DNA of 64,000 nucleotides, from IMG/VR virus record IMGVR_UViG_3300035182_001709, one strand, 5' to 3'. A program made the position numbers and the translations under genes. Positions 1 through 21,971 of this stretch are shown here, one piece after another. The number at the start of each line of letters is the position of its first letter. Position 1 is the stretch's first letter. The DNA is from a virus. Its lineage: Duplodnaviria; Heunggongvirae; Uroviricota; Caudoviricetes. Under the pieces are notes generated by a model, which saw nothing but the letters and a program-made list of their open reading frames with translations, was not told the DNA's origin and made no database searches.

Positions 1-218
1 TCGACGAGGTTGATGACCCGTCGAAGGAACTGATCATCATGGATCGCAGGATGTTTTTCGACGATCGTCGGTTCACTGACGATCAGGTCGACTACGGTCA
101 GGTCCTCCTGACAAAGGGCGGTGTTTCCCGTGACGACTGGTGACAATAAGCCTTTCTTCGATCAAAGAGGCTGCCATGAAAATGGGCGTCAGCAGATCAA
201 TGATCTTGCAAGTTTTGA

Positions 219-1046
219 ATGGTCATCGTGAATCTGCAAAAGGGTACGTGTACCATCATGCCAGAACACCAAAATAGGTTTTGTTTTGTGGCACCGATGT
301 TCAATGCATCGGAAACATTGCCCAGGATGCTTTACAGCATCTATGGGCAGTCATATGACAACTGGAAGATCGTCCTGATCGATGATGTGTCCGATTCTGT
401 GCATGTAGCCAACGCAAAAGACTGGCTGCAACGCTTCGATCACCTCAATTCTGGCCGTGTCACTACAATCTGGAACGCTGAGAAGAAGTGGGAGGTTGCC
501 AACGTCCTCAGAGGTCTGCAGGAGTGTGAGGACAGCGACATCGTCTGTCGCATTGACGCGGACGATTGGTTGACAGAGCTCGATGCTCTGACGTACCTAA
601 ACGTTCTCTACAACCAGAGCGGCGCAGACGCCCTGTGGACGGCACATCGTTGGGGTTTTACTGACAAGAACATCTCAGCTCCGATGCCCGGAGATGCTGA
701 CCCGTACAAATACCCGTGGGTCTCCAGCCACCTAAAGACCTTTCGTAAGAGCCTTCTGAATGGCGTACCTTACGAAAACTTTACCAATATGAATGGTGAT
801 CTTGTTCGTAGGGCCGGCGACCAAAGCCTTTATCTCCCGGTGTTGCATAATGCAAAGAGGCGTGGATTTGTTCCACGCGTCATGTATCACTATACCATTG
901 ATGAGCGCGGCGGTGCTGTTTATCAGACTGATGACGCAAAGTTTCAAAAAGCAGAAGCTGACTTCTTGCGCGGAAGAGGTTACGTTGCCCAAGGAAAACC
1001 GTGGGAAGAAGGTCTACAGACGTCATCACACAAAGCATCCACCTGA
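219..1046 (+). CDS. Glycosyltransferase family 2 (start possibly ATG 258)
   Basis: GT2 N-terminal signature CFVAPMFNASETLPRMLYSIYGQSYDNWKIVLIDDVSD (Rossmann DxD-type nucleotide-sugar binding region). Confidence 0.75.
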   Translation: MVIVNLQKGTCTIMPEHQNRFCFVAPMFNASETLPRMLYSIYGQSYDNWKIVLIDDVSDSVHVANAKDWLQRFDHLNSGRVTTIWNAEKKWEVANVLRGLQECEDSDIVCRIDADDWLTELDALTYLNVLYNQSGADALWTAHRWGFTDKNISAPMPGDADPYKYPWVSSHLKTFRKSLLNGVPYENFTNMNGDLVRRAGDQSLYLPVLHNAKRRGFVPRVMYHYTIDERGGAVYQTDDAKFQKAEADFLRGRGYVAQGKPWEEGLQTSSHKAST

Positions 1047-1119
1047 AGTGTGTCAGTCAATTGTTGACATGTACGTCAATGAAAAGCTGTCGTCAGTTGG
1101 CATCCTGGAACGCCTTTAG

Positions 1120-1742
1120 GGCGCGGGTGTTGACATCAGTTACTCTGGCGTTATCAATCTGATTCATGCAGCAGGTGTGATGCGGTCACGAAGTGAAACA
1201 ACGAAACACATCACGTTCACAGACACTAAAAAGTGTAAACACGGTACGTCAGATGACGTGTGGCGGCGGGAGGTGTTGGCACGGGTCGAAACGTTCGAAG
1301 AAGCAAAACGACTCGAAGTTAAGTTCATTGCTGAATATAACACCTGTGCACTTGTTGGCGGCTTTGGGTATAACATGACCCTGGGCGGTGATGGTGGCAC
1401 TTTGTCGGGCGTAGCAAACCCGTTCTATGGTCACAACCACACTCCAGAATCTGTCGAGAAAATTCGACGTACCATCGGTGACCGCCTCTCCGGATAGAAC
1501 AACCCACAATGGGGTCGAAAAGGTGTGTTGAGTCCGGCATGGGGGTTAAACATTCGGAAGAGTCTCGACGTAAACGTAGTGAAAAATTACGTGGTCGTAC
1601 GATCAGCGAACAAGCAAAGAACAACATGAGACAAACGTCTCAGAATCCTGAAACCAAGCGTCGTCGTAGCGAAGCACAAAAGCTTCGTCGACAGAAAGAG
1701 CGAGAAGCACGTGCGAGTCTACATCAATCGTCGACCGATTAG
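1120..1742 (+). mobile_element. Free-standing GIY-YIG/NUMOD homing endonuclease gene, apparently fragmented: the frame 1120-1497 has no ATG start and is followed by a separate NUMOD3-repeat ORF at 1509-1742
   Basis: I-TevI-like catalytic-domain end (EYNTCALVGGFGYNMTLGGDGG), then NUMOD3-type repeats GHNHTPESVEKIRR and GVKHSEESRRKRSEKLRG split over two frames. It lies between two GT genes. A sigma70-like TTGACA(17)TATCAAT promoter is at 1128-1163. Confidence 0.5.
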
Positions 1743-2646
1743 GGGACCTTGGGGAGGTGGCGCACACTTCATTAATGCTGCCTACGAACACATTCCTGAA
1801 TTGGGCCATGAAGTGGTTCCCGCTGATGAGCGTCAGGTGGCACCCGATATCATCCTGCTCGCGGGCCTTGACAGCGAGGCTGGTGGCATCTCAGCTGAGC
1901 AGGCGGTCATGTACAAGCTACACATGACGGGTCACCGCGACATTCGCATCGTCCTCCGCGTCAACGAAAATGATGCCCGGAAGGGGACTACGGGGGTCGA
2001 CGAATACCTTTTGAAGCTCTCGGAGTACGTCGACGGCACGGTGTTTGTCTCGAGATGGCTGCAGAAATATTTCGAGAAAAAAGGATGGAATTGCTCCAAC
2101 AACACCGTCATCAAAAATGGGGTCGATTCAACCATCTTTGCCCCTGCGAACAAGTTCAACGACGGCAAGGTGCACATCGCGGCCCATCACTGGTCAGACA
2201 ACCCGTTGAAGGGTGCCGACATCTACGAAGAAATTGATCGCTTCGTCGGAGCTCAACCCAAGAAGTTCGCCTTCACGTACATCGGTCGACACAAGTGCGA
2301 CTTTAAGCACACCACGGTTGTGAGGCCGCTGTACGGCAAGAAACTCGGTGAAGAACTGGGTCGCCATGATGTCTATGTGTCAGCATCCAGGTTCGATCCT
2401 GGTCCCAACCACATCTTGGAATCGATTGCCTGTGGCTTGCCAACCTACGTGCACAAGGACGGCGGCGGCGCGGTCGAGTTCGCTTGTGGAGATGAGTACG
2501 TCTACCAGGACTGGAATGAGCTGCGCTTCATCCTCGAAAAAGGCGTTTTCCGACCGAATCCTGCTGCAACGGGCGATTGGAAGACATGCATCGAGGAGTA
2601 TGTTAGATTCATGCAGGCCACTAGCCTACGCACGGAGAACCCATGA
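1711..2646 (+). CDS. Glycosyltransferase, GT-B fold (GT4-like); GTG start uncertain
   Basis: C-terminal GT4 motif PNHILESIACGLPTYVHKDGGGAVEF (E-x7-E nucleotide-sugar pocket). Confidence 0.6.
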   Translation: MRVYINRRPIRGPWGGGAHFINAAYEHIPELGHEVVPADERQVAPDIILLAGLDSEAGGISAEQAVMYKLHMTGHRDIRIVLRVNENDARKGTTGVDEYLLKLSEYVDGTVFVSRWLQKYFEKKGWNCSNNTVIKNGVDSTIFAPANKFNDGKVHIAAHHWSDNPLKGADIYEEIDRFVGAQPKKFAFTYIGRHKCDFKHTTVVRPLYGKKLGEELGRHDVYVSASRFDPGPNHILESIACGLPTYVHKDGGGAVEFACGDEYVYQDWNELRFILEKGVFRPNPAATGDWKTCIEEYVRFMQATSLRTENP

Positions 2647-3026
2647 GTGACAAGAAGGTCGGAATCCACGAGGCCGTGTCCCAGCTGTTGGGTGAGAAGT
2701 TGAAGAAGTACATCAAACCTGAGGGTTCAGAGGAGGGCCTCAATCCCTACGTCTGCACTCAGATCTATGGTGACATCTTTGACGCGCTCGTCGAGGTCTT
2801 CACCGCCGCGCAGGTCGAGATCACCAATGAGTCGATGAACTACGTGGCGCAGCAGTACTACGATAGCATCCTCATCAACAATCGCTATGAGCTCGATCCC
2901 AACATCTTCTCGCAGCGTGCCAGGCTGGAGAACATCGAGACCAAGGAGCTGGCATTGTTGCGCATGATGCTCCATGGGACCGACTTTTCGTTGCCGATCA
3001 TTCAGGAGATCAAGCGTCGATCATGA
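2643..3026 (+). CDS. Hypothetical protein
   Basis: 127-aa ORF co-oriented with the GT cluster; overlapping ATGA-type gene junctions. Confidence 0.4.
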   Translation: MSDKKVGIHEAVSQLLGEKLKKYIKPEGSEEGLNPYVCTQIYGDIFDALVEVFTAAQVEITNESMNYVAQQYYDSILINNRYELDPNIFSQRARLENIETKELALLRMMLHGTDFSLPIIQEIKRRS

Positions 3027-3955
3027 AGGTGCACTTCGACGGTGTCAATTTCAACTCTTTGTCCGGCCCCAACACCTTCGCAGGCCGCCTAGCCCGTGGG
3101 TTGTTCGAGAGCGGACACGAGGTGACGCTCTCGGTAGCCGAGGCCGACGTTTCACTGGTCTTCATCGAACGCAGTGGGGCACCCCTTGCCAAGAAAGTCG
3201 TCCAGCGCCTAGACGGCGTCTGGTTCAAACCCGAAGAGTTTCACACCAAGAACTCGAACATCAAGGCGTTGTACGGCGCCGCCGACGCCGTCGTCTTTCA
3301 GTCGGAATTTGATCGCAACTTCGTTGAGTAGTGGTGGGGAGGCGTCACCCGGCACACCGTCATCCGCAACGGGATCGACACGGTGCCTCTCAAGGAGTTG
3401 ACCATTCCGGCGCTGAGCAAATTGGTGCATGATTATGAGCGCATCTACGTCTGCAGCTCGAATTGGCACCCACAGAAGCGCCTCAAGTCAAACGTTGAAC
3501 TCTACATGCACCTCCGCGAGAAGCGGCCCAACAGCGCCCTGATCATTATGGGTAAGGACCCTGACGTGCGTGTGGCAGACCCACACGTCTTCTACACTGG
3601 TCCTGTTGGTCCCGATGTCTACATGCAGGTGTATGCTGCAGCCTCATGGATGCTGCATCTAGCGTGGGCTGACCATTGCCCCAACGTTGTCGTAGAAGCT
3701 CTGTCACAAGGAACTCCCGTGGCATGCGCATCCGTGGGTGGAACCAAGGAACTCATCGGCTCTTATGGCCACGTCCTACAGGAGCAGCCGTACGACTACA
3801 CGCTTGAGGACTACGATAATCCACCCATGATCGATGTGAGGCAGGTCGAAGACCTGCCAGACCGTCGCGATCTCGACTATACCAGCATCGCCGACATCGA
3901 CATCAAGAATGTCACGCGGCGCTACATTGAACTGTTCGAATCGGTACTCGCATGA
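3023..3955 (+). CDS. GT4 glycosyltransferase interrupted by a single in-frame TAG (3329-3331)
   Basis: ORFs 3023-3331 (GT4 N-terminal domain) and 3383-3955 (C-domain, EALSQGTPVACASVGGTKE) are in the same frame. The only intervening stop is TAG; reading through gives ...EFDRNFVE-X-WWGGVTRHTVIRNGIDTVPL..., which restores the conserved NGID interdomain motif. Confidence 0.6.
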
Positions 3956-4869
3956 ACAAGGTTTACGTGCTGCCTCCCAAAGAAGACTGGATCGTCGACC
4001 GCTTCGTCAAGGAATGGAACGAAGACAATGCCGACATCAGCGTCTATCATCCCAAGGACGCTCACGTTGTTTGGTTGTTGGCCGACTGGTGTTGGGAAGG
4101 TCTATCGAACGCGGGATTGTTGCGTTACAAAAAGGTGATCACCACAGTTCATCACATCACACCAGAGAAATTTGGGTTCAAGGAACTCGATGATTTCAGG
4201 CAACGCGACCTGGTGACCACAGCCTATCACGTTTACAACGAACGGACGCACTCGTTCATTAGACCCTTGACTGAAAAGCCTATCCATCTCATCAAGTACT
4301 GGGCCAACCAGAAGATCTGGCTGCCGACGTTGGACAAGGGATTGCTGCGGCAGAAGTACGGGATTCCGACAGATGCCTACGTCATCGGTTCATTCCAACG
4401 TGACACAGAAGGTAAGGACCTGAAGAGCCCAAAGCTCGAAAAGGGCCCTGATCTACTCGCAGATTTCATCATCCGGAAGCATCGCCAACGAGGCATCATC
4501 GGCGACGATAAGGTACACGTGGTCCTGGCAGGTTGGCGACGTCAGTACCTGATTGGACGTCTAGAAGAGGCGGGCGTCCCGTACACTTACCTGGAACGGC
4601 CCCCGCACGAGACGGTCAATGAACTCTACCAGACGCTTGACCTTTACCCGGTCACCGCACGTCACGAGGGAGGCCCGCAGTCATTGATCGAGTGTGGCCT
4701 GCTCAATGTGCCAGTAGTCTCCAGGCCAGTCGGCATCGCAGAACAGGTGTTGCCTTCCTCTGCAATTGCTGATGATGTCTTCAACGCTACGCCGGCAATT
4801 CCCAACGTAGAGGCATGGAAACTTCCCGCGGGTTATGAGCCCTATAGAAAATTGATCGAGTCGCTATGA
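3952..4869 (+). CDS. Glycosyltransferase-like protein (GT-B C-terminal domain)
   Basis: EGGPQSLIECGLLNVPVVSRP resembles the GT1/GT4 C-terminal motif. Confidence 0.45.
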   Translation: MNKVYVLPPKEDWIVDRFVKEWNEDNADISVYHPKDAHVVWLLADWCWEGLSNAGLLRYKKVITTVHHITPEKFGFKELDDFRQRDLVTTAYHVYNERTHSFIRPLTEKPIHLIKYWANQKIWLPTLDKGLLRQKYGIPTDAYVIGSFQRDTEGKDLKSPKLEKGPDLLADFIIRKHRQRGIIGDDKVHVVLAGWRRQYLIGRLEEAGVPYTYLERPPHETVNELYQTLDLYPVTARHEGGPQSLIECGLLNVPVVSRPVGIAEQVLPSSAIADDVFNATPAIPNVEAWKLPAGYEPYRKLIESL

Positions 4870-5120
4870 ACTACGAAGAACTGGCTGAGAAAGTCCGTCA
4901 CACCCTCGAAACATGGGAGAAAGGCCACATATCGAACGGTGAGTTCCACAGTCGGATCTACGATCTAGTCTGGGACCCACGAGAGTTTGAGGCACTCGAG
5001 GCCGGTGAGACTGTCATGGCATTTGGCTCGTGTTGCTGCAGCGAACATCCACCTGACAGGACATTCAAGTGCGAGATCACGATTCAACCTCACGGATACA
5101 CCATCAAGAGGTGCGAGTGA
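4866..5120 (+). CDS. Hypothetical small protein
   Basis: 84-aa ORF, overlapping start/stop with flanking genes. Confidence 0.3.
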   Translation: MNYEELAEKVRHTLETWEKGHISNGEFHSRIYDLVWDPREFEALEAGETVMAFGSCCCSEHPPDRTFKCEITIQPHGYTIKRCE

Positions 5121-5134
5121 GTGTCAAATTCTTG

Positions 5135-5929
5135 ATGGTGACGTGTTGCCTGGAGCCGACCCGCGTCGAGATCCTGAAGTCTGTCATCAAGAACATTCAG
5201 GAACAGGCGCCAGAGCTTGTCACTGATCTCACGGTCTTCGACAATGCCTCAAACCAACCAGACGTTCACGAGTTGCTTTACGGAGCCTTCAAGAACGTCT
5301 ATGTGGCAGACTCCAACGTGGGTTATTGGACCGCCATCGACTGGTGGCTGCGTTCGTTAGAGTCAGATCCTCCGAAGTACACGTACATCATCGAATCAGA
5401 CATGATGCACTATGACTTCAACAAGATCTGGACCGCAGCCTCCTACCTCGACACCCACCCAGAGATCGGTGCAGTTCGACTCCATGAATACGACTACGAT
5501 AACAGGCACCTTTACGACAAAGACCGGCCACTACCAGAATCACGGCGTAACATCTGGCAGTCGCACACCAACAAGGTCAACGGCAAGCGCGTTTCATTTG
5601 AAGAGTCAGAACAACCCGGCATCCTGAAGACAACGTTCCTGACACAGCTGCCTGCCCTCAATCGTTATTCAGCCATGGTCGAGTCATTCAGAAGGCTGCG
5701 CGGGATGCCCAAGTTTTCTGAGCTAGATTTCCAGCGGGCGTATTACGTGCAGTATCCCATCAATGCCATCCTCGATGGTGGCATCTTCAATGCTGACGCG
5801 GCGAGCTGGGGAACCAAGACTGTGACGGGCTCGTGGTCAACGCCTGAAGAACTTGCCAAGATTGGTTACAAGAGCACCCGCTATGCCAACATCGTGGGTC
5901 CCGAAGGGTACAAAGTCACCAGGCTGTGA
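5135..5929 (+). CDS. Putative GT2-like glycosyltransferase
   Basis: LTVFDNASNQ...GYWTAIDWW resembles the GT2 N-terminus (vvDNgStD). Confidence 0.4.
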   Translation: MVTCCLEPTRVEILKSVIKNIQEQAPELVTDLTVFDNASNQPDVHELLYGAFKNVYVADSNVGYWTAIDWWLRSLESDPPKYTYIIESDMMHYDFNKIWTAASYLDTHPEIGAVRLHEYDYDNRHLYDKDRPLPESRRNIWQSHTNKVNGKRVSFEESEQPGILKTTFLTQLPALNRYSAMVESFRRLRGMPKFSELDFQRAYYVQYPINAILDGGIFNADAASWGTKTVTGSWSTPEELAKIGYKSTRYANIVGPEGYKVTRL

Positions 5930-5943
5930 TAGAATGGCCACAG

Positions 5944-6957
5944 ATGTCGCGGTACCTCATTTTCGGTGGAACGGGCTCCCTGGGCAAAAAGCTGATCGAA
6001 CGGTTGTCGCCGCCCGATCAAGTTGCTGTCTATTCACGGGACGAGGCTAAACACTGGACGATTCGCAATGAGCTTGCGGCCCGTCCTCGTGCCTCTGATC
6101 TCAAGTTTTACGTTGGCGACATCCGTGATCCTTCCCGTGTCAAGGACGTCATTCGCCAGACTCAACCCACCCACATTATCATCGCCGCTGCGTTGAAGCA
6201 GGTCGATACCTGCGAACTGTCGCCCACTGAGGCGATTGCCACAAACCTGCAAGGCACTGTCAACGTTGTCAATGCCTTGAATGAGTTGCGTCCAACGTGG
6301 CTCGAGGCTTGCCTCTTCGTCTCTACCGACAAGGCGTGTGCACCCGTCAACGTCTACGGCATGTGCAAGGCCGCCTCAGAACGTGTCGTGACCAGTCAGT
6401 CAATGACGGGTCACCAGTGGATACGCTATCTGGCAGTTCGCTATGGAAACGTCCTGGAATCACGCGGCAGTATCATTCCGCTGTTCAAGTACCAAGCCGA
6501 GACTCAGCCTTACCTGACTGTCACCGATCCGAATATGACGAGGTACGTCATGACACTCGACGATTCTGTCGATCTGATTTTGACTGCTTTCAAAAAGGGT
6601 GAGTCGGGTGAAACCTGGATCCCGCGGCTGCCTGCCATGAAGATCGGCGACCTCGCGGAAATCTTTGCCGAGCGCCACGGGAAACAAGTGAAGATCATCG
6701 GCCTGCGTCCAGGTGAAAAGATGCACGAAGACCTGATCAATGCATCTGAATCAGTGCGCACCACATTGAGCAACGACAAGCAGAACTACATCATCGGACC
6801 AGCGCACCTCGCAGGCAAAAATGATGCGTTCACATACTCCAGCAATCACCAGGTCTTCACCAAGAACCAGCTGAAAGAACATTTGACACGCTTGGGCATC
6901 ATCGACAAGTCGTCGGATGAGTTTGAGGGTCGTTCAATCGAGGAGATTCGCAAGTGA
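5944..6957 (+). CDS. UDP-N-acetylglucosamine 4,6-dehydratase (PseB/FlaA1/CapD family SDR)
   Basis: GGTGSLGK Rossmann motif, STDKA, catalytic YGMCKAASE (YxxxK). Confidence 0.8.
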   Translation: MSRYLIFGGTGSLGKKLIERLSPPDQVAVYSRDEAKHWTIRNELAARPRASDLKFYVGDIRDPSRVKDVIRQTQPTHIIIAAALKQVDTCELSPTEAIATNLQGTVNVVNALNELRPTWLEACLFVSTDKACAPVNVYGMCKAASERVVTSQSMTGHQWIRYLAVRYGNVLESRGSIIPLFKYQAETQPYLTVTDPNMTRYVMTLDDSVDLILTAFKKGESGETWIPRLPAMKIGDLAEIFAERHGKQVKIIGLRPGEKMHEDLINASESVRTTLSNDKQNYIIGPAHLAGKNDAFTYSSNHQVFTKNQLKEHLTRLGIIDKSSDEFEGRSIEEIRK

Positions 6958-8099
6958 GCAAGACGTACCCACTGTTCAAGGTTCACGTGGACAAGCCCCG
7001 GGCTCTTAACGAGATCGAAAAGGTCTTTGCTTCGGGTTTCATCAACGAAGGCCTCGAGGTCACCAAGTTGACCGCGGCCATGAAGCACGAGCTGCAGGCC
7101 GAGAATCTGATTCTCGTCAACAGCTGCACTTCAGCACTGACGCTGGCACTGCACCTCTCTGGCGTCGATCATCGCTGTAACGTCGTCTCAACGCCAATGA
7201 CGTGTGTGGCGACTAACACGCCGATCGTAGCCGCGGGCGCGCGGATCAACTGGGCCGACGTGGACCCTGAAACAGGCATGCTCACTCCTGAGACAGTCGA
7301 GGCCGCCATCGATGACGACACTCGAGCTGTAATGGTTGTGGCCTGGGCAGGCACGCCGCCCGACTTGAGAGGCATCCGTGAGGTGTGCAATGCTCACAGC
7401 GTTCCAATGATCCTGGACGCAGCGCACGCATTTGACGCCGGCTTCGGCGGCATGCCTGTTCACACCTGGGCCGACTATGCCTGTTACTCATTCCAGGCCA
7501 TCAAACACTTCACCACCGGCGACGGCGGCGCCCTAATCTGTCGGGCGCCCAATGCTTACCGCAGAGCCAAGGCACTGAAGTGGTTTGGCATCGACCGTGA
7601 CCGTGCCAAGGATGAGAACGGCAACTGGAAGGGCCAACAGTGGGACGTCGACATCCTCGAGAGCGGCTTCAAGTTCAACATGAACAACGTGGCGGCAGCC
7701 ATTGGCCTGTCGCAACTGCCTCACATCGATGAGATTTTGGGCGCTCACCGCGCAAATGCGTCAGTCTATGACCAGGTCTTCCGCGATTCAAAGACAGTGC
7801 GGCCGGTCAAGCGTCACCCCGAAGCGTTCTCTAGTCACTGGGTTTACACCATGCGTGTCAATCACGAGTATTCGAGGTTGACGCGCGATGAGTTGTTGAA
7901 GGCCCTCAATGAAGAAGGAATCAAGGCTGGCGTGGTTCATGTGCCCAATGATGACTACTCGGCATTCGCGCACTTCTACAAGAGCCTGCCTGGCGTCCGT
8001 GGATTTGCTGCTGAGCAATTTTCGCTGCCATGTGGCTGGTGGATCACGGAAGACGACGTTCACCACATCGCCAAGCGCGTCCTCGAGTTGACTCGATGA
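6954..8099 (+). CDS. DegT/DnrJ/EryC1 (PseC/ArnB-like) PLP-dependent sugar aminotransferase
   Basis: PLP lysine motif YSFQAIKHFTTGDGGALI; family-typical N-terminus. Confidence 0.8.
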   Translation: MSKTYPLFKVHVDKPRALNEIEKVFASGFINEGLEVTKLTAAMKHELQAENLILVNSCTSALTLALHLSGVDHRCNVVSTPMTCVATNTPIVAAGARINWADVDPETGMLTPETVEAAIDDDTRAVMVVAWAGTPPDLRGIREVCNAHSVPMILDAAHAFDAGFGGMPVHTWADYACYSFQAIKHFTTGDGGALICRAPNAYRRAKALKWFGIDRDRAKDENGNWKGQQWDVDILESGFKFNMNNVAAAIGLSQLPHIDEILGAHRANASVYDQVFRDSKTVRPVKRHPEAFSSHWVYTMRVNHEYSRLTRDELLKALNEEGIKAGVVHVPNDDYSAFAHFYKSLPGVRGFAAEQFSLPCGWWITEDDVHHIAKRVLELTR

Positions 8100-8815
8100 G
8101 CACTCCGCGCGTCTTTGTTGGGACCCTCTATTGCAAAGAGGGCGATTTTCAGGAACACTGCAAGATGATTAGTTTGCAGCGAGATGTCAACATTTCACAC
8201 CATGTGATTGCTGACCTGCCTGAAAAGGACGCGCACAATTCCCTGTGGGACGCCTGGAACAGATCGAAGACGGAATATGACCTCTTCGTCAAGATCGATG
8301 CTGACACCGTCCTCCGTGACGAAGAGACCATAAAGCGAATTTGGGCCTTGTTCGAAGGCAATCCACGGCTCACTGGCATCCAGGCTCCACTGCACGACTA
8401 CATGACTGATGGCCTAATCAATGGCCTCAACTGCTTTTCGCCGAAGGTGATTTTCAACCCGACGAATGATGGTCTGTATTGTGACCGCGGCGTCGACACG
8501 GGCCACGATCAAGTCCTGCGTCAAGGACAACTGCCTCCCGAGCTCGAGCCCGCGGGCTATCACTGTCATCACGCAACAGACAAGCAAGCATTTCACTATG
8601 GCCTTCACCGGGCCCTGAAGGGTCAGGCTGACATCATGTTGCGTGTGCAAAAGGCGTGGCTGACACATCGTGATCGAATCCGTGGCCTCGCCTTGGCGGG
8701 CACCGCAGCGGCGCCCTACCTGTGGAATCACAACTACAACGATCCTGAATTTGAGTCCGAATACCAGCGACTAGTGAAGGAGTTCGATGCGTCCCACGAT
8801 CATCCAGCTCGTTGA
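8096..8815 (+). CDS. Hypothetical protein, possible sugar-modifying enzyme/glycosyltransferase (DxD-like KIDADTV)
   Basis: ORF within the glycan cluster; weak DAD motif only. Confidence 0.3.
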   Translation: MSTPRVFVGTLYCKEGDFQEHCKMISLQRDVNISHHVIADLPEKDAHNSLWDAWNRSKTEYDLFVKIDADTVLRDEETIKRIWALFEGNPRLTGIQAPLHDYMTDGLINGLNCFSPKVIFNPTNDGLYCDRGVDTGHDQVLRQGQLPPELEPAGYHCHHATDKQAFHYGLHRALKGQADIMLRVQKAWLTHRDRIRGLALAGTAAAPYLWNHNYNDPEFESEYQRLVKEFDASHDHPAR

Positions 8816-9704
8816 CTCAGTTCAATACGTTGAGACCAACTGCTTTCAACACCAACTGCTGTCGGCACTGCGTCGCAAGGCTGAAGTGGTTCAGGTGCCC
8901 GCTGATCAACTGCCCAGATTTCGCGTTCCAGAAGGAACGCATCACGTGCTCAGCTGCCTCAAGATGAGGACGCTACACAGGCTTAAGGACCAGCTTAGGG
9001 CCGCCCTGGGCAATTGTCAACTCGTACATTATGAGCAAGATCCTTGGCATGGCTACATGGACGACAGCCCGTGGCAAGGAATTTTTGCAGATATAAAACA
9101 AAGACTTAATCTGTCGTTCGTTGCAGTCACCACGCGATGGTGGGCTGACTACATGGAGGCCGACGGGATCCCGGCACGCTTCGTCAAGATGTGGATGATG
9201 CCAGAGTACTGCGACCGCGGGCCAGCGTACCTCGAGAGACCCATTGACCTGGGATTCGTCGGCAGTCTACATCCTTACCGCAGAAAACTGTTCGACCTGA
9301 TTGAAGACAGCGGCTATTCCATCAACACTTCAGGAGGTTACGACTACTCGGGTTACCTCAAAGCGTTGCATGGAATCAAGGTCTATCTTCACTCTGAAGA
9401 CTGTCCGATCAAAGTCAATGGTGTGTTCCACAATCTCAATGACGGACTGTGGGCCCGTGAGATCGAGGTCGCCGCACGAGGTTGCATCTCGATTCGCAAC
9501 TGGGGGTCTGAGTCTGACTCGTACCTGGGAAGCGATATTCGCACTGCGTTCCTCTACCGTGACCCTCAAGATGTCCCTGGAATAATCCGGTCAATTGAGC
9601 AGATGGATCCAACAGAACGCCAGAAAAGAATTGACGACACTTTGGAGTACATTCGTTCAGCAGATGAGTGGGGTCGGACTGCAGAAGTTCTGATCAGAGG
9701 TTGA
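8787..9704 (+). CDS. Putative glycosyltransferase (CgeB-like / Glyco_trans_1_2-type C-terminal domain)
   Basis: LGFVGSLHPYRRKLFDLIEDSG region resembles CgeB-type GT. Confidence 0.4.
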   Translation: MRPTIIQLVDSVQYVETNCFQHQLLSALRRKAEVVQVPADQLPRFRVPEGTHHVLSCLKMRTLHRLKDQLRAALGNCQLVHYEQDPWHGYMDDSPWQGIFADIKQRLNLSFVAVTTRWWADYMEADGIPARFVKMWMMPEYCDRGPAYLERPIDLGFVGSLHPYRRKLFDLIEDSGYSINTSGGYDYSGYLKALHGIKVYLHSEDCPIKVNGVFHNLNDGLWAREIEVAARGCISIRNWGSESDSYLGSDIRTAFLYRDPQDVPGIIRSIEQMDPTERQKRIDDTLEYIRSADEWGRTAEVLIRG

Positions 9705-10498
9705 TGATGACTTATAAAGCAGGTCACTACACGCACGTTTCACAGAAGGCAGAGATCGGACTCGGCGTCGAACTGGAACTCGGTGATTGCAGCTACATCG
9801 GCCCGGGCGTTCGGTTCACCGGCCGCGGGCGAGTCAAGTTTGGTGACTACTGTAAGGTCCACGCGGGTTGCTTCATCAACGCTGGTGACGGTGGTTACGT
9901 AGAGTTCGGCCACAACTGCTGGTTCGGCGAGCGCACCGTCCTGGACGGCACCGGTGGCCTGTTGGGTGGCAACAACATCGGCGTCGGTATTGCCTCACAC
10001 CTCTACACTCACATTGCCCACGGCGACGTCATCGAAGGCTGCCGATTCATGAGCACCAAGCAGATGTTGTTGGAAGACGACGTTTGGTTCGTCGGCCAGT
10101 GCCTCGTCTCGCCGATCCACGCCAAGGCCAAATCGATGGCCATGTTGGGTTCTGTGGTGACGAAGGATATGGAGGTGAACCACGTCTATGCAGGCACCCC
10201 AGCCAAAGACATCACTGACAAAGTTGGCCCTCCTTGGATTCCTCGGACTGACGAGGACAAGCTGCGGTTGCTGCAAGAGACCAAGGCACGTTACCTGTCG
10301 CTGCACGAGCCCGATTACACGGGTTCCGCACAGCACACCATCGTGCCTTGCGTTGGCCTGCCGGACAAGGCCTTGCGGGCCCAAGGTGTGACCTACATCG
10401 ACGTGGTCTCAAGGAAGTACACGAAGAATTTGTCTGAGGATGAACGTCGATTCATGTCATGGCTCATCTCATATAAAGGTCGCTACGTCCCAGAATGA
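9704..10498 (+). CDS. Left-handed beta-helix (hexapeptide repeat) sugar N-acetyltransferase (PseH/PglD/WbpD-like)
   Basis: Repeated [LIV]-G-x-x-x-x hexapeptides (GDYCKVHAGCFINAGDGGYVEFGHNCWFGERTVLDG...). Confidence 0.7.
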   Translation: MMTYKAGHYTHVSQKAEIGLGVELELGDCSYIGPGVRFTGRGRVKFGDYCKVHAGCFINAGDGGYVEFGHNCWFGERTVLDGTGGLLGGNNIGVGIASHLYTHIAHGDVIEGCRFMSTKQMLLEDDVWFVGQCLVSPIHAKAKSMAMLGSVVTKDMEVNHVYAGTPAKDITDKVGPPWIPRTDEDKLRLLQETKARYLSLHEPDYTGSAQHTIVPCVGLPDKALRAQGVTYIDVVSRKYTKNLSEDERRFMSWLISYKGRYVPE

Positions 10499-10537
10499 AT
10501 TGAACAAGGACCCCGGTGAGGGGTAAAGTAAGGTAAC

Positions 10538-11497
10538 ATGAAGAGCGTTGCAGTTATTGGGCAAGGGTTTGTCGGTGGATCGCTGACCACTGTGTTCGCT
10601 GAACGAGGGTTCGACGTCTATGTCTACGATAAGGCTGGTAAGACTGCCACAGGAGCGCAGTACTCGAAGTTCGTCCGCGGCGTGGCACAACCGTGCGAGT
10701 CGGTGGCAGACCTGGTCTCCTCCTGTGAGGAAAAGAAGAATTTTTCAGGCGTCTATTTTGTCGCCCTGCCGACGCCGATGTACGAGGACGGCACTGCCGA
10801 CCTTTCGATTGTAGAGGGCGTGCTCGATGAGCTGGCGGCCTGTACTGGCAATCGCATCGCTGTCGTCAAATCAACGGTGCCACCGGGCTCGACAGAACGT
10901 TGGAACAAGAAGTACGAAGGCACTGGACTCCGCGTGATCTTCAATCCCGAGTTCCTGACTGAAGCCAATGCCCTCGATGACATGCGTAATCAGGATCGTA
11001 TCATCCTTGGTGGACCTCGTCCGTGGATCAACACCGTCAAGTTGATCTTCCAGACGGCCTTTCCGAAGGTGACGCTCATCAAGACGTCTTCCACCACGGC
11101 TGAGATGGTGAAGTACACCATCAACTGCTTCCTGGCCACCAAGGTGTCCTTCGCCAACGAGATGGCACAGGTGTGTGAGGCGCTCGATAAGCGTGGACTG
11201 AACATCGACTACGATAAGGTCGTGGAATATGCTAGGCTCGACAAGCGCCTTGGCAACTCTCACTGGGCCGTCCCGGGTCCGGTGCCCACCCACGATGGCC
11301 GCTACGTTCGTGGCTTTGGAGGACACTGCTTCCCAAAGGACATGAACGCATTGATCGCTGTGGCCAAGGACTTGGGCGTTGACCCGAAGGTGATGGCCGC
11401 GTCTTGGGCCAAGAACCTCGAGGTTCGTGGTCCTGAGGATCGTGACTGGGAACACATGCAGGGCCGCGCTGTTAGCAAGAAAGGAGGCAAGAAGTGA
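10538..11497 (+). CDS. UDP-glucose/GDP-mannose dehydrogenase family protein (short form)
   Basis: N-terminal GxGxVG NAD fold (VAVIGQGFVGG); catalytic Cys motif GFGGHCFPKD. Confidence 0.75.
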   Translation: MKSVAVIGQGFVGGSLTTVFAERGFDVYVYDKAGKTATGAQYSKFVRGVAQPCESVADLVSSCEEKKNFSGVYFVALPTPMYEDGTADLSIVEGVLDELAACTGNRIAVVKSTVPPGSTERWNKKYEGTGLRVIFNPEFLTEANALDDMRNQDRIILGGPRPWINTVKLIFQTAFPKVTLIKTSSTTAEMVKYTINCFLATKVSFANEMAQVCEALDKRGLNIDYDKVVEYARLDKRLGNSHWAVPGPVPTHDGRYVRGFGGHCFPKDMNALIAVAKDLGVDPKVMAASWAKNLEVRGPEDRDWEHMQGRAVSKKGGKK

Positions 11498-11889
11498 TCA
11501 AGTTCTATTGGAGCCGATTGCCCGGCAAGTTCGTCAACAAGACCATTTGCGAGACTTTTATGCTCGCGGAAGGTCTGAACGCTGAATCTAAGTTCACCGG
11601 CACCGTCCGCGAGTGGTACGAGACGTTGGTGGAGACCTGTATTGACGCGCACAACACGGCAATCCATAAAGGCCTTGCCTCGTCTGAGTGGAAGCCAAAC
11701 TCCATTGAGTTGCTGGTGGGCCCTGACGTGCACACTATGCTAGAGGCATCGGTGCTGTACAGGTCCGACGGTCGCCTTGGAGCGCATTTCACCGTGAAGA
11801 AAGACAAGGGTCTGACGAACCGTGTCATAATGCGACATCGCGGCGAGGTGATCGGTGACGTGACCGTCCTCGACCTGCCTTGCCGCTGA
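11494..11889 (+). CDS. Hypothetical protein
   Basis: 131-aa ORF, last gene of the glycan operon. Confidence 0.35.
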   Translation: MIKFYWSRLPGKFVNKTICETFMLAEGLNAESKFTGTVREWYETLVETCIDAHNTAIHKGLASSEWKPNSIELLVGPDVHTMLEASVLYRSDGRLGAHFTVKKDKGLTNRVIMRHRGEVIGDVTVLDLPCR

Positions 11890-11907
11890 ATAAATTCAGC
11901 AGTGAAT

Positions 11908-11948
11908 CATCACGCCCGGTGCGATAAACAAATCCGACCGGGCGTGAT
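11908..11948 (+). promoter_or_regulatory. Perfect 11-bp inverted repeat (TCACGCCCGGT ... ACCGGGCGTGA) with a 16-nt loop in the intergenic region upstream of nadM
   Basis: Seen directly in the sequence; no T-tract follows it. Confidence 0.4.
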
Positions 11949-12027
11949 ACCTAACCGCATGTGGCAATGCCGCCACCCCTGGCGAGAAACCCAGTGAGGG
12001 TTTGCCGGAACCAACACGGAGAGTGTC

Positions 12028-13038
12028 ATGCGCGAGTTTGGCGTCTACATTGGGCGATTTCAGCCCTTTCACAATGCGCACCTAGAGATGGTGCGTTTCG
12101 CTCTTAAGCAGGCCAAGCGCCTCATCATCGTCGTCGGTAGCGACAACCAGGCAAGGAACGTCAAAAACCCCTGGACGACTGCGGAACGAATCAACATGAT
12201 TCGTGGACCGCTCACTGACGAAGAGCGAGCGCGGGTTGATTTCATCCCCGCCAAGGACTACCTCTACAACGACAACCTCTGGATCACTGCGGTACAGCGC
12301 TCAATCGATGAGGTCACTGACGGGTCAAAGGATGTCATCTTGGTCGGTCACAAGAAGGACGCCTCGAGCTTCTACTTGAAGCTGTTCCCACAGTGGGACT
12401 TCGTGGAGACCGGAATCACAATGGATGTCGATGCAACTCATATCCGTGAGTTGATGTTCACGCAGGACAAGATCGGCATTAAGAACCTGGTGCCCGAGGC
12501 TGTTTACGGCCAACTTCTGGCGTTCATGGCAACGTCCGAGTTCCAGCGACTCCACGAGGAGTACCACCACATCGCGGCGTACAAGGCCTCGTGGGACGGT
12601 GCACCCTTCCCTCCGACGTTCAATACCGTCGATGCCATCGTGGTCTGCAGTGGTCACGTCCTCGTCGTCCGCCGCCGTGGTGCTCCGGGCAAGGGTTTGA
12701 TCGCCCTGCCAGGAGGATTCCTGAACGTCAACGAAAAGATCGTCGATGGGATGGTCCGTGAGCTCAAGGAAGAGACAGGCATCAAGGTTCCGCCCCTCGA
12801 GTTGAAGAAGGTCATCGTCGATCAGCGGGTCTTCGATCATCCTGGTCGCTCGCTCCGCGGACGCACCATCACGCATGCCTTCTGTATCAAGCTTCCCGAC
12901 GGGGAGCTACCGCAGGTCAAAGGCATGGACGATGCCGACAAGGCCTGGTGGATGCCTCTGCGAGACGTCTTCTCTCGGGAAGATCAGTTCTTCGAGGATC
13001 ACTTCCACGTCATCAATTACTTCGTCAACCGCTTCTAA
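12028..13038 (+). CDS. nadM: Bifunctional NMN adenylyltransferase / Nudix hydrolase (NadM-Nudix, NatV-like)
   Basis: NadM motif GRFQPFHNAH; Nudix box GGFLNVNEKIVDGMVRELKEETGI. Confidence 0.85.
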   Translation: MREFGVYIGRFQPFHNAHLEMVRFALKQAKRLIIVVGSDNQARNVKNPWTTAERINMIRGPLTDEERARVDFIPAKDYLYNDNLWITAVQRSIDEVTDGSKDVILVGHKKDASSFYLKLFPQWDFVETGITMDVDATHIRELMFTQDKIGIKNLVPEAVYGQLLAFMATSEFQRLHEEYHHIAAYKASWDGAPFPPTFNTVDAIVVCSGHVLVVRRRGAPGKGLIALPGGFLNVNEKIVDGMVRELKEETGIKVPPLELKKVIVDQRVFDHPGRSLRGRTITHAFCIKLPDGELPQVKGMDDADKAWWMPLRDVFSREDQFFEDHFHVINYFVNRF

Positions 13039-13090
13039 ACCGCCACGATCGGACCAGAGAGGTCAGCGTGGCACTCACGGAGAGTGAATC

Positions 13091-14479: not shown

Positions 14480-14955
14480 GGGTTGACATGGACGACGATC
14501 CGGATTACGATGACATCATGAACGTATTGGACATCAACAACATCCACGGTACCCTTTGGCAGGGTGCCATTCCGCCGGCAGGCAGCCTGCTGCGTGATAA
14601 GGGTTTTGATGTCGTGGTGCTCGCAGCAAGTGATCACCAGGACGCCTCATGGTACCCGGGTCTTCATGTCATCCTCGCACCGGGCGATGACGATGAACGT
14701 CCACATCGACTTATGAACTTCTTGCCGACATGGCAGGCGGCCGCCCGAGAGGTAGCCAGCCACGTCAGGTCAGGCAAGAAGGTCCTAGTCACATGCATGT
14801 CAGGGTACAATCGCAGCGGGATTGTGACCGCGATGGCCCTTCATGAGTTGACAGGTTGGAATGGCCACGTCTGCGTCGAGACGATCAAACGGCGCCGTCA
14901 GTATGCCTTGTCGAACAAGACATTTGTGGCTTGGGTCCACGACAACCTCAAGTAG
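14476..14955 (+). CDS. Dual-specificity (CX5R) protein phosphatase; ends with TAG followed in frame by GTT TAA
   Basis: VLVTCMSGYNRSG active-site loop (C-x5-R-S). Confidence 0.65.
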   Translation: MRVDMDDDPDYDDIMNVLDINNIHGTLWQGAIPPAGSLLRDKGFDVVVLAASDHQDASWYPGLHVILAPGDDDERPHRLMNFLPTWQAAAREVASHVRSGKKVLVTCMSGYNRSGIVTAMALHELTGWNGHVCVETIKRRRQYALSNKTFVAWVHDNLK

Positions 14956-15229
14956 GTTTAAGCCCTCTGTGTCAATCTTTGTACATAAAAGACGAATTTG
15001 ACATCAACATGTGTCCTTTATGTGCAAAGATTACAGAAGTTTTAGGGACCTGTACAAGACGCCACCTGTGTTGTATTTACAATACAAAGGCATCGCCATG
15101 TACGTCATGTATACGCAGAACTATCCACAGATGATTCTCCGCGAGCATTAGCTGCCGCGAGGTCCTCCTTTTCGCGCTCTTACCTCACCCGTGATTGAGT
15201 GCACTTTCAGAAAGAAAAGAGAGGACATC

Positions 15230-15577
15230 ATGAAGAACATCTATTTGCGCGTACTTCGCGCCAAGATCCGCGGTCTGCAGGCCACCGGCGTTTCGATCCA
15301 CAATCGTATCCGCAAGACGAGCGGCAAGCGACGTGATTCGCTGTGGCAGGAAAAGCGAAGGATTGGAACCTTCAACAGGGAGCACCTGATTGCTTACGGT
15401 TTGCTTCGCGGCATCCCGTATGAGAGGATTGAACATTGCTCAAACGTAAATCGACCCAGTCCCGCAAGGATTCACGAGCTGATGCTCGCCCACATGCCTC
15501 CTTGGGAGGCAAAAAAGCTCACGGTGGAGGCGGTGCAGGCCCTTCTCGAGCCCACGGAAAAAAGGCTCGAAAAATGA
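15230..15577 (+). CDS. Hypothetical protein
   Basis: SD AGAGAGGA upstream; ATGA overlap with the next gene. Confidence 0.4.
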   Translation: MKNIYLRVLRAKIRGLQATGVSIHNRIRKTSGKRRDSLWQEKRRIGTFNREHLIAYGLLRGIPYERIEHCSNVNRPSPARIHELMLAHMPPWEAKKLTVEAVQALLEPTEKRLEK

Positions 15578-16286: not shown

Positions 16287-16294
16287 GCAAGGGC

Positions 16295-16325
16295 GGGCGG
16301 TGAAATTCACCGCCCGTTTTGCTTG
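16295..16325 (+). terminator. Rho-independent terminator (9-bp GC-rich stem GGGCGGTGA/TCACCGCCC, loop AAT, then GTTTTGCTT)
   Basis: Directly visible hairpin plus U-tract downstream of the tRNA-binding protein gene. Confidence 0.65.
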
Positions 16326-16327
16326 CC

Positions 16328-16936
16328 ATGAATCATGGCAACGGAAATCGCGAAAGTTTCTTCAGGCATTTGGATTCGTTCCTAGCCCCGAGCGTCATCC
16401 TCAACGTGCAGCATGCCTACACGATGGCAAAGTATGGCAACCGCGCGTAGGTTCGAAAGGAATTGGACGACCACGGTGATCCCGTCAGGTACTTCGAGCA
16501 CGTGCGCCAAGTGGCCATCGTCCTGATCGACAAGGCCAAGATCGTCAAGTCAGAGATGATAATCTCTGCGTTGCTCCATGACGTGGCGGAAGACGCTCCC
16601 AACCTGCCGCCCGTGTTGATCGAGCGCTGCTTCGGCACCGATGTCATCGAGATCATCAAGACTTTGAACAAGGTGCCCGAGGAAGGTTATTTTGAGTGCT
16701 TCAACATGTCGACCGACTGGCGTCCGTTCATCAAGGCACGTGATCGGCTCGACAATCTCAGGACGTTGGGGGCAGCCTCTAAGGAGTTCCGTGTCAAGCA
16801 GGTCGCAGAGACCCGCGAGAAGTACTTTCCGTTGTTCGACGTCATGATGACTCTGACGCCCGCACCTATCTCAATCACCCCCAGACGCTGCGTGACCTGG
16901 TCCGAGCCGAGACGGAGAAACAAGTGCTGCTACTGA
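16328..16936 (+). CDS. HD-domain hydrolase (RelA/SpoT/MESH1-like (p)ppGpp hydrolase family) with an in-frame TAG at 16448-16450
   Basis: ATG 16328 opens ...VQHAYTMAKYGNRA-TAG-VRKELDDHGDPVRYFEHVRQVAIVL...ISALLHDVAEDAPN. The conserved HD N-terminal helix (AxxxHxGQxRxxxxPYxxHPxxVAxxL) spans the TAG, so translating across it gives a complete domain. Confidence 0.6.
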
Positions 16937-16955: not shown

Positions 16956-17028
16956 GCCTCGGTAGCTTAGCGGGCTAAAGCTGCGGTCTCTAAAACCGCG
17001 ATCGTGGGTTCGACTCCCACTCGGGGCA
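16956..17028 (+). tRNA. Amber suppressor tRNA (anticodon CUA at 16990-16992); amino-acid identity unknown; discriminator A; no encoded CCA
   Basis: Canonical cloverleaf: acceptor GCCTCGG/TCGGGGC, D arm GCTT-AGCGGGCTA-AAGC, anticodon stem GCGGT/ACCGC with loop CUCUAAA (U33, A37), T arm GTGGG-TTCGACT-CCCAC. Confidence 0.8.
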
Positions 17029-17030: not shown

Positions 17031-17102
17031 GCTCCTGTAACTCAATGGCAGAGTGACGGATTCTAACACCATGCGTTGAGGGTTCAAGTCCCTTCGGGAG
17101 CG
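17031..17102 (+). tRNA. Second tRNA with probable CUA anticodon (17063-17065) but a weak anticodon stem
   Basis: Acceptor GCTCCTG/CGGGAGC, D arm ACTC-AATGGCA-GAGT, T arm GAGGG-TTCAAGT-CCCTT. Anticodon loop UUCUAAC is flanked by stem ACGGA/ACCAT (3 of 5 pairs), so identity is less certain. Confidence 0.5.
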
Positions 17103-21663: not shown

Positions 21664-21971
21664 TGATTACGACGATTGTCATACTGTCGCTGCTCTGTCT
21701 GACACTTGCGTTCTTCATCTACGTTAGCGTAAAGAGGAACCTCGAGTACCAAGACAAGATGCAGGAAATCGTCGATCAGACAGAGGTAGCGCTTGACGTG
21801 TTGAACACGTGCTATCAACGAGCGGCCGCACGGGCAGAGCTCGAGGTCATGAGCGACGAACCCGTCGTCCGTGAGCTCGTGCAGGACATCAAAATGTCCC
21901 GTGACGCCATACTGCTTGTTGCAAACTTGATTGTCGAGCCGATTCAGGACGACGAGGAAGGCAACAAATAG
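21663..21971 (+). CDS. Small membrane protein (N-terminal TM helix); ends with TAG abutting the ATG of the next, same-frame gene
   Basis: MITTIVILSLLCLTLAFFIYV hydrophobic segment. Confidence 0.4.
   Translation: MITTIVILSLLCLTLAFFIYVSVKRNLEYQDKMQEIVDQTEVALDVLNTCYQRAAARAELEVMSDEPVVRELVQDIKMSRDAILLVANLIVEPIQDDEEGNK

What the first reader, a model, noticed from the sequence alone, without database searches (positions are those of the whole stretch)
3023..3955. GT4 glycosyltransferase split into N- and C-domain ORFs by a single in-frame TAG (3329-3331)
Both halves are in the same frame with no other stop between them. Translation across the TAG produces ...HTVIRNGIDTV..., the conserved interdomain NG[IV]D motif of GT4 enzymes. 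This is a second, independent case of a TAG inside a conserved enzyme in this window.
Basis: partly seen in the sequence, partly recalled or inferred. Interest (0 to 1): 0.7.

Follow-up and report, generated by a model that had tools for sequence, protein, structure and literature searches.

The report
One-sample amber mutation in phage glycosyltransferase
The stop codon inside this phage sugar-transferase gene is real, but it is a one-letter change (AAG lysine to TAG) seen in only one assembly of the phage, so it is an ordinary recent nonsense mutation rather than evidence of an altered genetic code.

Summary
TAG at 3329-3331 is the only stop in a 310-codon frame (3023-3955) that encodes a conserved GT4/GT-B glycosyltransferase of an uncultured ~309 kb jumbo phage.

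The implied stop-codon recoding is not supported.
- Four near-identical assemblies of the same phage have AAG (Lys) at this codon. T3329 is their only difference from the window, over 7.5-10.9 kb each.
- The intact 310-aa protein is on record on 4 contigs. The split products are each on 1 contig.
- Orthologues mostly have Lys, Arg or His at this position, and all 25 related IMG/VR loci are uninterrupted.
- TAG still ends genes here (14953, 21969).
- The "other case", the HD gene TAG at 16448, replaces a near-invariant Gln. That gene looks decayed: 13 of 80 conserved columns differ and its C-terminus is frameshifted.

The phage does carry two tandem tRNA(CUA) genes (16956-17102). They might make this amber allele leaky, but that is inferred, not shown.

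Verdict: a recent, sample-specific Lys103-to-amber allele, or less likely an assembly error, in a standard-code phage. Low interest. The suppressor-type tRNAs are the more interesting thread.

The parts
3023..3955 (+). GT4/GT-B glycosyltransferase gene. It has 310 sense positions and a TGA stop at 3953-3955. It overlaps both neighbouring genes by ATGA.
   Evidence: Pfam Glycos_transf_1 and Glyco_trans_1_4 score above their cut-offs, and Glyco_transf_4 matches residues 80-120. There are 674 homologues, of which the best 120 are listed and nearly all are ~310 aa. The AF2 model has pLDDT 95.2. The top Foldseek hits are BshA, MshA, PimA and WaaG.
3329..3331 (+). Amber codon TAG at residue 103. Sister assemblies have AAG (Lys) here.
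   Evidence: T3329 versus A is the only difference between the window and L037, L038, L039 and L040, over 7.5-10.9 kb each. The orthologue column is K60 R33 H15 T3 Q2 N2 Y1 G1.
3023..3331 (+). The 102-aa product expected under the standard code. It is a truncated N-terminal Rossmann domain that lacks its last strand.
   Evidence: This product (P0242) is on record on one contig only, of 309,378 bp.
3383..3955 (+). Downstream 190-aa ORF (GTG start) that JGI called as a separate gene. It covers the C-terminal domain. There is no evidence that it is translated on its own.
   Evidence: P0080 is 100% identical to it and is on one contig of 309,378 bp.
16956..17028 (+). tRNA with anticodon CUA (amber-suppressor type), well formed, discriminator A73.
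   Evidence: ARAGORN. Rfam tRNA 60.4 bits against a threshold of 29. Identical in sister assemblies L035 and L036.
17031..17102 (+). Second tRNA with anticodon CUA. Its anticodon stem has two mismatches and its discriminator is G73. It resembles the single tRNA(CUA) of relative L028.
   Evidence: (48.8 bits).
16319..16936 (+). Context: an HD_4 (SpoT/RelA-hydrolase-like) gene with an in-frame TAG at 16448-16450. It is probably decaying.
   Evidence: The TAG aligns to Gln in 118/120 homologues and in L026 and L027. 13 of 80 conserved columns are changed, against 0-6 in its full-length homologues. The C-terminal ~25 aa are encoded in another frame.
14953..14961 (+). Genuine TAG terminator of the DSPc phosphatase gene, followed by GTT and then TAA.
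   Evidence: The DSPc domain is complete before the TAG.
21969..21971 (+). Genuine TAG terminator between two separate genes. The next gene's ATG follows it directly, in frame.
   Evidence: In relatives L019, L025, L026 and L027 the two genes lie in different frames, and L028 ends the first gene with TGA.

Best explanation
The TAG is a very recent, sample-specific nonsense allele (Lys103 AAG to TAG, one A-to-T transversion) of an otherwise intact and conserved GT4 glycosyltransferase gene. The gene lies in the sugar-biosynthesis and glycosylation cluster of an uncultured ~309 kb jumbo phage that uses the standard code.

Shown:
- The ancestral and prevalent allele is AAG.
- The gene shows no other lesion and no excess change at conserved positions.
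- TAG still terminates genes in this genome.

Inferred:
- Under the standard code this allele yields a 102-residue fragment that lacks the last N-domain strand and the whole nucleotide-sugar-binding C-domain, so it would be inactive.
- Because the five genes from 1711 to 5120 overlap by ATGA/GTGA, early termination may also lower translation of the next glycosyltransferase.
- The phage's own two tRNA(CUA) genes may read the TAG at some rate and give some full-length enzyme. I put this at about 0.4. Position 103 accepts K, R, H, Y, F, N, Q, T and G in orthologues, so almost any inserted residue should be tolerated.
For: - T3329 versus A is the only difference from the window in four other assemblies: L037, L038 (a 309,481 bp contig), L039 and L040. 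All of them read GAG AAG TGG.
- The exact-sequence look-up finds the intact 310-aa protein on 4 contigs. The 102-aa and 190-aa pieces are on 1 contig each.
- Lys is the commonest residue at this column in orthologues, K60 R33 H15 of 120. All 25 IMG/VR loci are uninterrupted.
- The window's GT4 departs from the family at 3 of 117 columns that are at least 90% conserved. The normal range is 0-5.
- Only two in-frame stops lie inside homology-supported genes in the window.
- TAG is a real terminator at 14953 and 21969.
- Relative L028 carries a tRNA(CUA) and has no in-frame TAG in the ~11 kb compared.
- The tRNA(CUA) pair passes the Rfam tRNA threshold and is conserved in the sister assemblies.
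Against: - I could not see reads, so I cannot separate a real fixed variant from a consensus error.
- A random single-base change in this 10.9 kb has only a ~3.6% chance of creating a stop and ~1.8% of creating TAG. It is therefore mildly surprising that the one SNV is exactly that. This is n = 1, and the site was picked because it looked odd.
- Both in-frame stops in the window are TAG, none is TGA or TAA, and the phage carries amber-type suppressor tRNAs. That pattern is also what a suppressor-buffered genome would show.
- Nothing here shows that the tRNAs are expressed, charged or active.
Confidence: 0.72

Rival explanations
1. Assembly or sequencing artefact: the true base at 3329 in the source sample is A, as in the sister assemblies, and the gene is intact.
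For: The TAG allele is on record on exactly one contig. Every other assembly of the phage has AAG. A one-base difference in 10.9 kb is within the range of consensus errors.
Against: Single-base substitution errors are rare in the consensus of a 309 kb, evidently well-covered contig. The sister assemblies differ by other real variants, such as an in-frame ~111-nt deletion in L035, so strain-level variation does exist. A random error has only about a 2-4% chance of making a stop.
Confidence: 0.15
2. TAG is a sense codon in this phage (code-15-like, or a regulated partial reassignment). It is decoded by the two tRNA(CUA), and the GT4 and HD genes are two examples.
For: - There are two tRNA(CUA) genes.
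- Both homology-supported in-frame stops are TAG.
- The HD TAG aligns to an almost invariant Gln, the residue known for TAG-recoded phages.
- TAG is a rare terminator here.
Against: - There are only 2 in-frame TAGs in about 58 kb of coding sequence, and none in the structural genes from 25.5 to 39.3 kb.
- One TAG is a private SNV from AAG. The other sits in a gene with 13 changed conserved columns and a frameshifted C-terminus.
- The aligned residues disagree, Lys versus Gln.
- TAG ends the DSPc gene and the 21663-21971 gene.
- G+C is ~55% and TGA is the main stop, unlike the low-GC, TAA-preferring lineages where recoding is described.
Confidence: 0.05
3. A functional split enzyme: the 102-aa and 190-aa pieces are made separately and assemble into an active glycosyltransferase.
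For: The second ORF starts (GTG 3383, residue 121) close to the start of the C-terminal domain.
Against: The cut lies inside the N-domain, and residues 103-120, which include the invariant N116 and G117, would be lost. None of the 25 related loci is split, and neither are the listed homologues apart from the window's own fragment P0080. The split is one base change away from an intact allele in the same population.
Confidence: 0.02

Closest known systems
GT4-family retaining glycosyltransferases (GT-B fold), e.g. BshA (3mbo, 5d00, 6n1x), MshA (3c4q), PimA (2gej), WaaG (2iv7), PglA (8dqd)
   Same: It has two Rossmann-like domains with a C-terminal helix. Pfam Glycos_transf_1 and Glyco_trans_1_4 score above threshold. 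The NG[IV]D turn is conserved at the domain junction, and the acidic-x7-E motif aligns with the ExxxxxxxE of BshA.
   Different: It is shorter (310 aa against ~360-400), with a compact N-domain. The first acidic residue of the motif is Asp217 rather than Glu. Sequence identity to solved structures is only 12-18%. Donor and acceptor are unknown. No homologue was found in 50,697 deposited phage genomes.
Classical amber (nonsense) mutants of phages that are rescued by suppressor tRNAs (textbook knowledge, cited from memory)
   Same: A single base change turns a sense codon into TAG in an otherwise intact gene, and function would depend on a tRNA with anticodon CUA.
   Different: Here the candidate suppressors are encoded by the phage itself, and the allele arose in a natural population. 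Suppression has not been shown.
TAG-recoded (code 15) phages such as crAss-like and Lak phages, and standard-code relatives that have acquired suppressor tRNAs (Borges et al., bioRxiv 10.1101/2021.08.26.457843; Peters et al., PMC9523058)
   Same: The phage encodes tRNA(CUA). In-frame TAGs occur in conserved genes, and one of them aligns to Gln. The situation matches the proposed stage in which a suppressor is acquired first and in-frame stops can then accumulate.
   Different: There are only two in-frame TAGs, and neither is in a structural or lysis gene. TAG is still used as a stop. G+C is 55% and TGA is the dominant stop, rather than a low-GC, TAA-rich genome. The GT4 TAG is polymorphic and replaces Lys, not Gln.

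Membership tests
GT4 / GT-B glycosyltransferase | C-terminal 'Glycosyl transferases group 1' domain above the curated threshold | tested here: met
   PF13692 scores 42.6 bits (cut-off 27) and PF00534 scores 39.6 bits (cut-off 26.4), over residues 139-251.
GT4 / GT-B glycosyltransferase | N-terminal Glyco_transf_4-type domain | tested here: inconclusive
   PF13439 scores 24.4 bits, below its cut-off of 28.5, and matches only residues 80-120. The precomputed Pfam column lists PF13439 for some orthologues.
GT4 / GT-B glycosyltransferase | Two-Rossmann-domain GT-B fold most similar to solved GT4 enzymes | tested here: met
   The AF2 model has pLDDT 95.2 and pTM 0.91. The top 50 Foldseek PDB hits are GT-B glycosyltransferases of the kind grouped in GT4 (BshA, MshA, PimA, WaaG, PglA, TreT), with E down to 9e-14 and TM about 0.6-0.75. 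A profile search of PDB sequences hits BshA at E = 3e-7.
GT4 / GT-B glycosyltransferase | E-x7-E motif in the C-domain | tested here: inconclusive
   The motif aligns with ESFGLVLLE of BshA as D217-HCPNVVV-E225. The second Glu is invariant, but the first position is Asp in this family.
GT4 / GT-B glycosyltransferase | Glycosyl transfer activity with retention of configuration | not testable with these tools
   This needs an enzyme assay.
Stop-codon-reassigned phage (TAG as sense, code 15-like) | Many in-frame TAGs in conserved genes, typically late or structural ones | tested here: not met
   There are two in about 58 kb of coding sequence and none in the baseplate or large structural genes. 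One is a private SNV and the other is in a decaying gene.
Stop-codon-reassigned phage (TAG as sense, code 15-like) | TAG is not used as a terminator | tested here: not met
   The DSPc gene ends TAG GTT TAA with its domain complete. Gene 21663-21971 ends in TAG, and its neighbour is a separate gene in another frame in four relatives.
Stop-codon-reassigned phage (TAG as sense, code 15-like) | TAG positions align to one consistent amino acid in homologues | tested here: not met
   GT4 aligns to Lys, Arg or His, with AAG in the sister genomes. HD aligns to Gln in 118/120 homologues.
Stop-codon-reassigned phage (TAG as sense, code 15-like) | Phage-encoded suppressor tRNA with anticodon CUA | tested here: met
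   There are two, at 16956-17028 and 17031-17102, with Rfam scores of 60.4 and 48.8 bits.
Recent nonsense allele / nascent pseudogene | A sense codon at the same position in near-identical genomes, one base change away | tested here: met
   AAG is found in L037-L040, which are 99.99% identical to the window. The intact protein is on 4 contigs.
Recent nonsense allele / nascent pseudogene | The variant is supported by reads in the source sample | not testable with these tools
   No read data are available.

The most novel reading that the evidence does not exclude
The phage's own amber-suppressor tRNAs buffer TAG nonsense mutations, so amber alleles such as GT4 K103am (polymorphic) and HD Q41am (fixed) can persist or spread. 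On this reading the window catches the earliest step of stop-codon reassignment, suppressor first and in-frame stops later. It would be doing so in a 55% G+C, TGA-terminating environmental jumbo phage, outside the low-GC gut lineages where that path was proposed.
Probability: 0.25. Interest if true: 0.6.

Novelty: already known. Interest (0 to 1): 0.22.

Why it matters
For the scan, this removes one of the two supports for a claim that this genome uses a recoded genetic code. The GT4 TAG is a one-sample variant of AAG, and the HD TAG sits in a gene that looks decayed. Annotators should therefore treat this phage as using the standard code and the GT4 as an intact gene family with one nonsense allele.

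What remains of interest is the context. A clade of uncultured jumbo phages keeps suppressor-type tRNAs at a fixed locus next to a peptidyl-tRNA hydrolase, a tRNA-binding protein and an HD hydrolase. The anticodon is CUA in this phage and in L028, while relatives L026 and L027 have 8-nt anticodon loops containing UUCA.

If these tRNAs are active, natural amber alleles like this one would be a direct readout of how suppressors relax selection against nonsense mutations.

Tried and rejected
- A megablast of window 1-12000 and a tblastn of the GT4 protein against 50,697 deposited phage genomes gave no match. No cultured relative or host could be named.
- An exact look-up of P0080 in the contig index returned "not on record". 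I reached the sister assemblies through the neighbouring gene instead.
- I tried to assign an amino-acid identity to the two tRNA(CUA) genes.
  - Pairwise comparison with the 26 other tRNAs of the window and four E. coli tRNAs (sequences typed in from memory) gave no clear parent. The best matches were the phage's Arg-CCG tRNA for tRNA1 and nothing convincing for tRNA2.
  - Exact-pattern scans of IMG/VR for their T-arm and acceptor sequences found only the already known L028 contig, plus one contig on which ARAGORN found no tRNA.
  - Identity is therefore unresolved. Gln is suggested only by the HD alignment and by the literature.
- A six-frame tblastn of ORFs from the related loci against the window first gave hundreds of "in-frame stops" from shadow frames. 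After filtering by coding potential, only 3329 and 16448 were left.
- I asked whether TAG-terminated genes have unusually close back-up stops. There are too few genuine TAG-terminated genes (about 2-5) to say.
- The "SNV" at 22080 in L035 turned out to be an alignment effect at the edge of a deletion, not a second substitution.
- The ARAGORN 96-nt "tRNA" with a four-base anticodon (53678-53773) does not reach the Rfam tRNA threshold.

Full report
**The observation**

ATG 3023 opens a frame that runs to TGA 3953-3955, and its only stop is TAG at 3329-3331. Under the bacterial code this gives a 102-aa ORF (3023-3331) and a 190-aa ORF that starts at GTG 3383. The translation across the TAG reads FDRNFVE*WWGGVTRHTVIRNGIDTV.

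**What the gene is**

The read-through product matches Pfam Glyco_trans_1_4 (42.6 bits) and Glycos_transf_1 (39.6 bits) above their cut-offs. It also gives a sub-threshold Glyco_transf_4 match over residues 80-120, which spans the TAG.

A search of 5.8 billion proteins found 674 homologues. The best 120 are 57-75% identical, and nearly all are about 310 aa long and cover the whole query without interruption.

An AlphaFold model of the intact allele is very confident (pLDDT 95.2, pTM 0.91). Its best matches among solved structures are GT4 enzymes with the GT-B fold: BshA, MshA, PimA, WaaG and PglA. A profile search of PDB sequences also hits BshA, at E = 3e-7. In that alignment D217-x7-E225 lines up with the E-x7-E motif of BshA.

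In the model, residue 103 lies near the end of helix 95-105, before the last strand of the N-domain (111-113) and the invariant N116-G117 turn. So the TAG cuts inside the N-domain, not at the domain boundary. The downstream ORF starts at residue 121, roughly where the C-domain begins.

**The surroundings**

The gene sits in a run of five genes (1711-5120) that overlap by ATGA or GTGA. This run belongs to a sugar cluster that also holds:
- GT2 and further GT-B transferases;
- a Polysacc_synt_2 dehydratase, a DegT-type aminotransferase and a UDP-glucose dehydrogenase-type gene.

The window also carries baseplate wedge proteins, a T4 Rnl1-like RNA ligase and 27 credible tRNA genes out of 28 ARAGORN calls. 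The sister contigs are about 309 kb long. This is an uncultured jumbo myovirus-like phage. Nothing similar was found among 50,697 deposited phage genomes.

**The decisive result: the TAG is private to one assembly**

I looked up the neighbouring gene by exact protein sequence. That returned other assemblies of the same phage, from JGI samples 3300035181 (contig of 309,481 bp), 3300036715 and 3300035661 and from three Logan runs.

Four of them cover position 3329: L037, L038, L039 and L040. They are identical to the window over 7,467 to 10,869 bases apart from a single base: A where the window has T at 3329. All four read GAG AAG TGG, which gives Lys103.

The cluster look-up agrees. The intact 310-aa protein (P0241) is on record on 4 contigs. 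The 102-aa and 190-aa pieces are each on one contig, of 309,378 bp.

Lys is also the commonest residue at this column in orthologues: K60, R33, H15, T3, Q2, N2, Y1 and G1 of 120. All 25 related IMG/VR loci have a sense codon there (AAG, AAA, CGN, AGR, CAY, TAC, TTC or AAC) and no internal stop.

The window's copy differs from the family at only 3 of 117 columns that are at least 90% conserved. That is within the 0-5 range seen for ordinary members. The gene is therefore intact apart from one very recent A-to-T change.

**Is TAG a sense codon in this genome?**

For:
- There are two tandem tRNA genes with anticodon CUA at 16956-17028 and 17031-17102. Both are above the Rfam tRNA threshold, at 60.4 and 48.8 bits, and both are unchanged in the sister assemblies.
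- After filtering by coding potential, the only in-frame stops inside homology-supported genes are the two TAGs at 3329 and 16448. No TGA or TAA case was found.

Against:
- TAG is a working terminator. The DSPc phosphatase gene ends ...NLK TAG GTT TAA with its domain complete.
- Gene 21663-21971 also ends in TAG. It is a separate gene from its neighbour, which lies in another frame in relatives L019, L025, L026 and L027, and L028 ends this gene with TGA.
- There are no in-frame TAGs in the baseplate and large structural genes.
- The genome is about 55% G+C and ends most genes with TGA. The lineages where recoding has been described are low in GC and prefer TAA.
- Relative L028 also carries a tRNA(CUA) and has no in-frame TAG in the ~11 kb that could be compared.

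**The "other case", the HD gene**

The TAG at 16448 aligns to Gln in the two closest loci, to Gln of the HRGQLRR motif in a solved Rel structure, and to Gln in 118 of 120 homologues. It is fixed in every assembly of this phage. L035 and L036 are identical to the window at this site, and the truncated 157-aa product is on 6 contigs.

However, this gene also differs from its family at 13 of 80 conserved columns, where its full-length homologues differ at 0-6. One of those changes replaces the otherwise invariant His three residues upstream of the TAG. In addition, the conserved C-terminal stretch (LRDLVRAETEKQ...) is encoded in a different frame from the rest of the gene. The HD gene therefore looks like a decaying gene, not clean evidence that TAG is read as Gln.

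The two TAGs also replace different residues, Lys and Gln.

**Conclusion on mechanism**

The best-supported reading is a recent, sample-specific amber allele (K103am) in a standard-code phage. Under the standard code it yields an inactive 102-residue fragment. Because the genes are translationally coupled, it may also reduce expression of the downstream transferase; this step is inferred.

Whether the phage's tRNA(CUA) pair reads this codon is open. Position 103 is tolerant of many residues, so any read-through would probably restore function. I found no evidence on expression, charging or amino-acid identity of these tRNAs.

A consensus error cannot be excluded without reads. The sister assemblies do differ by at least one other real variant, an in-frame ~111-nt deletion in L035.

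One small oddity remains. The only substitution in about 21 kb of comparable sequence creates a TAG, and a random change does that only about 1.8% of the time. With n = 1 and a site that was chosen because it looked odd, this is a hint and no more.

**Comparison with what is known**

- The gene is a member of the GT4/GT-B family by domain content, fold and motif. Its compact N-domain and D-x7-E motif are the differences.
- The TAG is a natural counterpart of a classical phage amber mutation.
- The genome does not meet the defining features of TAG-recoded phages, apart from carrying suppressor-type tRNAs.
- The genome does resemble the standard-code stage with an acquired suppressor tRNA that Borges et al. 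propose as the precursor of recoding. That is the most novel reading still open. I give it about 0.25.

**Verdict**

The gene identity is correct. The recoding interpretation is not supported. Interest in this finding is low. The conserved suppressor-type tRNA locus deserves its own look.

Noticed in passing
window 16956-17102; L026 10613-10770; L027 8875-9487; L028 250-324: A conserved tRNA locus lies just downstream of the HD gene in this phage clade. The window has two tRNA(CUA) genes and L028 has one. L026 and L027 instead have two tRNAs with 8-nt anticodon loops containing UUCA (AUUUCAAC, ACUUCAAG). The L026 pair passes the Rfam tRNA threshold; the L027 pair was seen with ARAGORN only. 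These look like opal or quadruplet suppressors, yet these phages end most genes in TGA.
   Followed up: partly
window 16319-16936: The HD_4 (SpoT/RelA-hydrolase-like) gene has a TAG at a near-invariant Gln. It also has 13 changes at otherwise conserved columns, including the invariant His three residues upstream, and its conserved C-terminal ~25 aa are in another frame. It is probably a decaying gene, and the TAG is fixed in all assemblies.
   Followed up: yes
window 14476-17104: There is a translation-related module: a DSPc phosphatase, a PTH2 peptidyl-tRNA hydrolase (15436-15933), a tRNA_bind-domain protein (15930-16286), the HD gene and the two tRNA(CUA) genes. Further on are a T4 Rnl1-like RNA ligase (39626-40897, minus strand) and an array of 25 credible tRNA genes (26 ARAGORN calls) at 43.6-54.2 kb.
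   Followed up: partly
window 1177-1497 and 1509-1742: Two short ORFs with repeats that look, by eye, like NUMOD3 motifs of homing endonucleases; Pfam found no family for either. Both end in TAG and they lie in different frames. They sit between the GT2 gene (219-1046) and the next transferase (1711-2646), and may be a broken mobile endonuclease gene.
   Followed up: no
window 21972-22082 versus L035 8207-8212: Sister assembly L035 lacks about 111 nt directly after the TAG at 21969. This removes the start codon and the Lys/Ala/Pro-rich N-terminus of the 270-aa protein, and it keeps the downstream frame in register with the upstream gene.
   Followed up: partly
window 53678-53773 (minus strand): ARAGORN calls a 96-nt tRNA with a four-base anticodon (gttc) here. 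It does not reach the Rfam tRNA threshold, so it is doubtful.
   Followed up: partly
window 12028-14479: These are NAD-salvage-type genes: a cytidylyltransferase-like plus NUDIX fusion (12028-13038, NadR/NadM-like by domain content) and a nicotinamide phosphoribosyltransferase (13091-14479).
   Followed up: no
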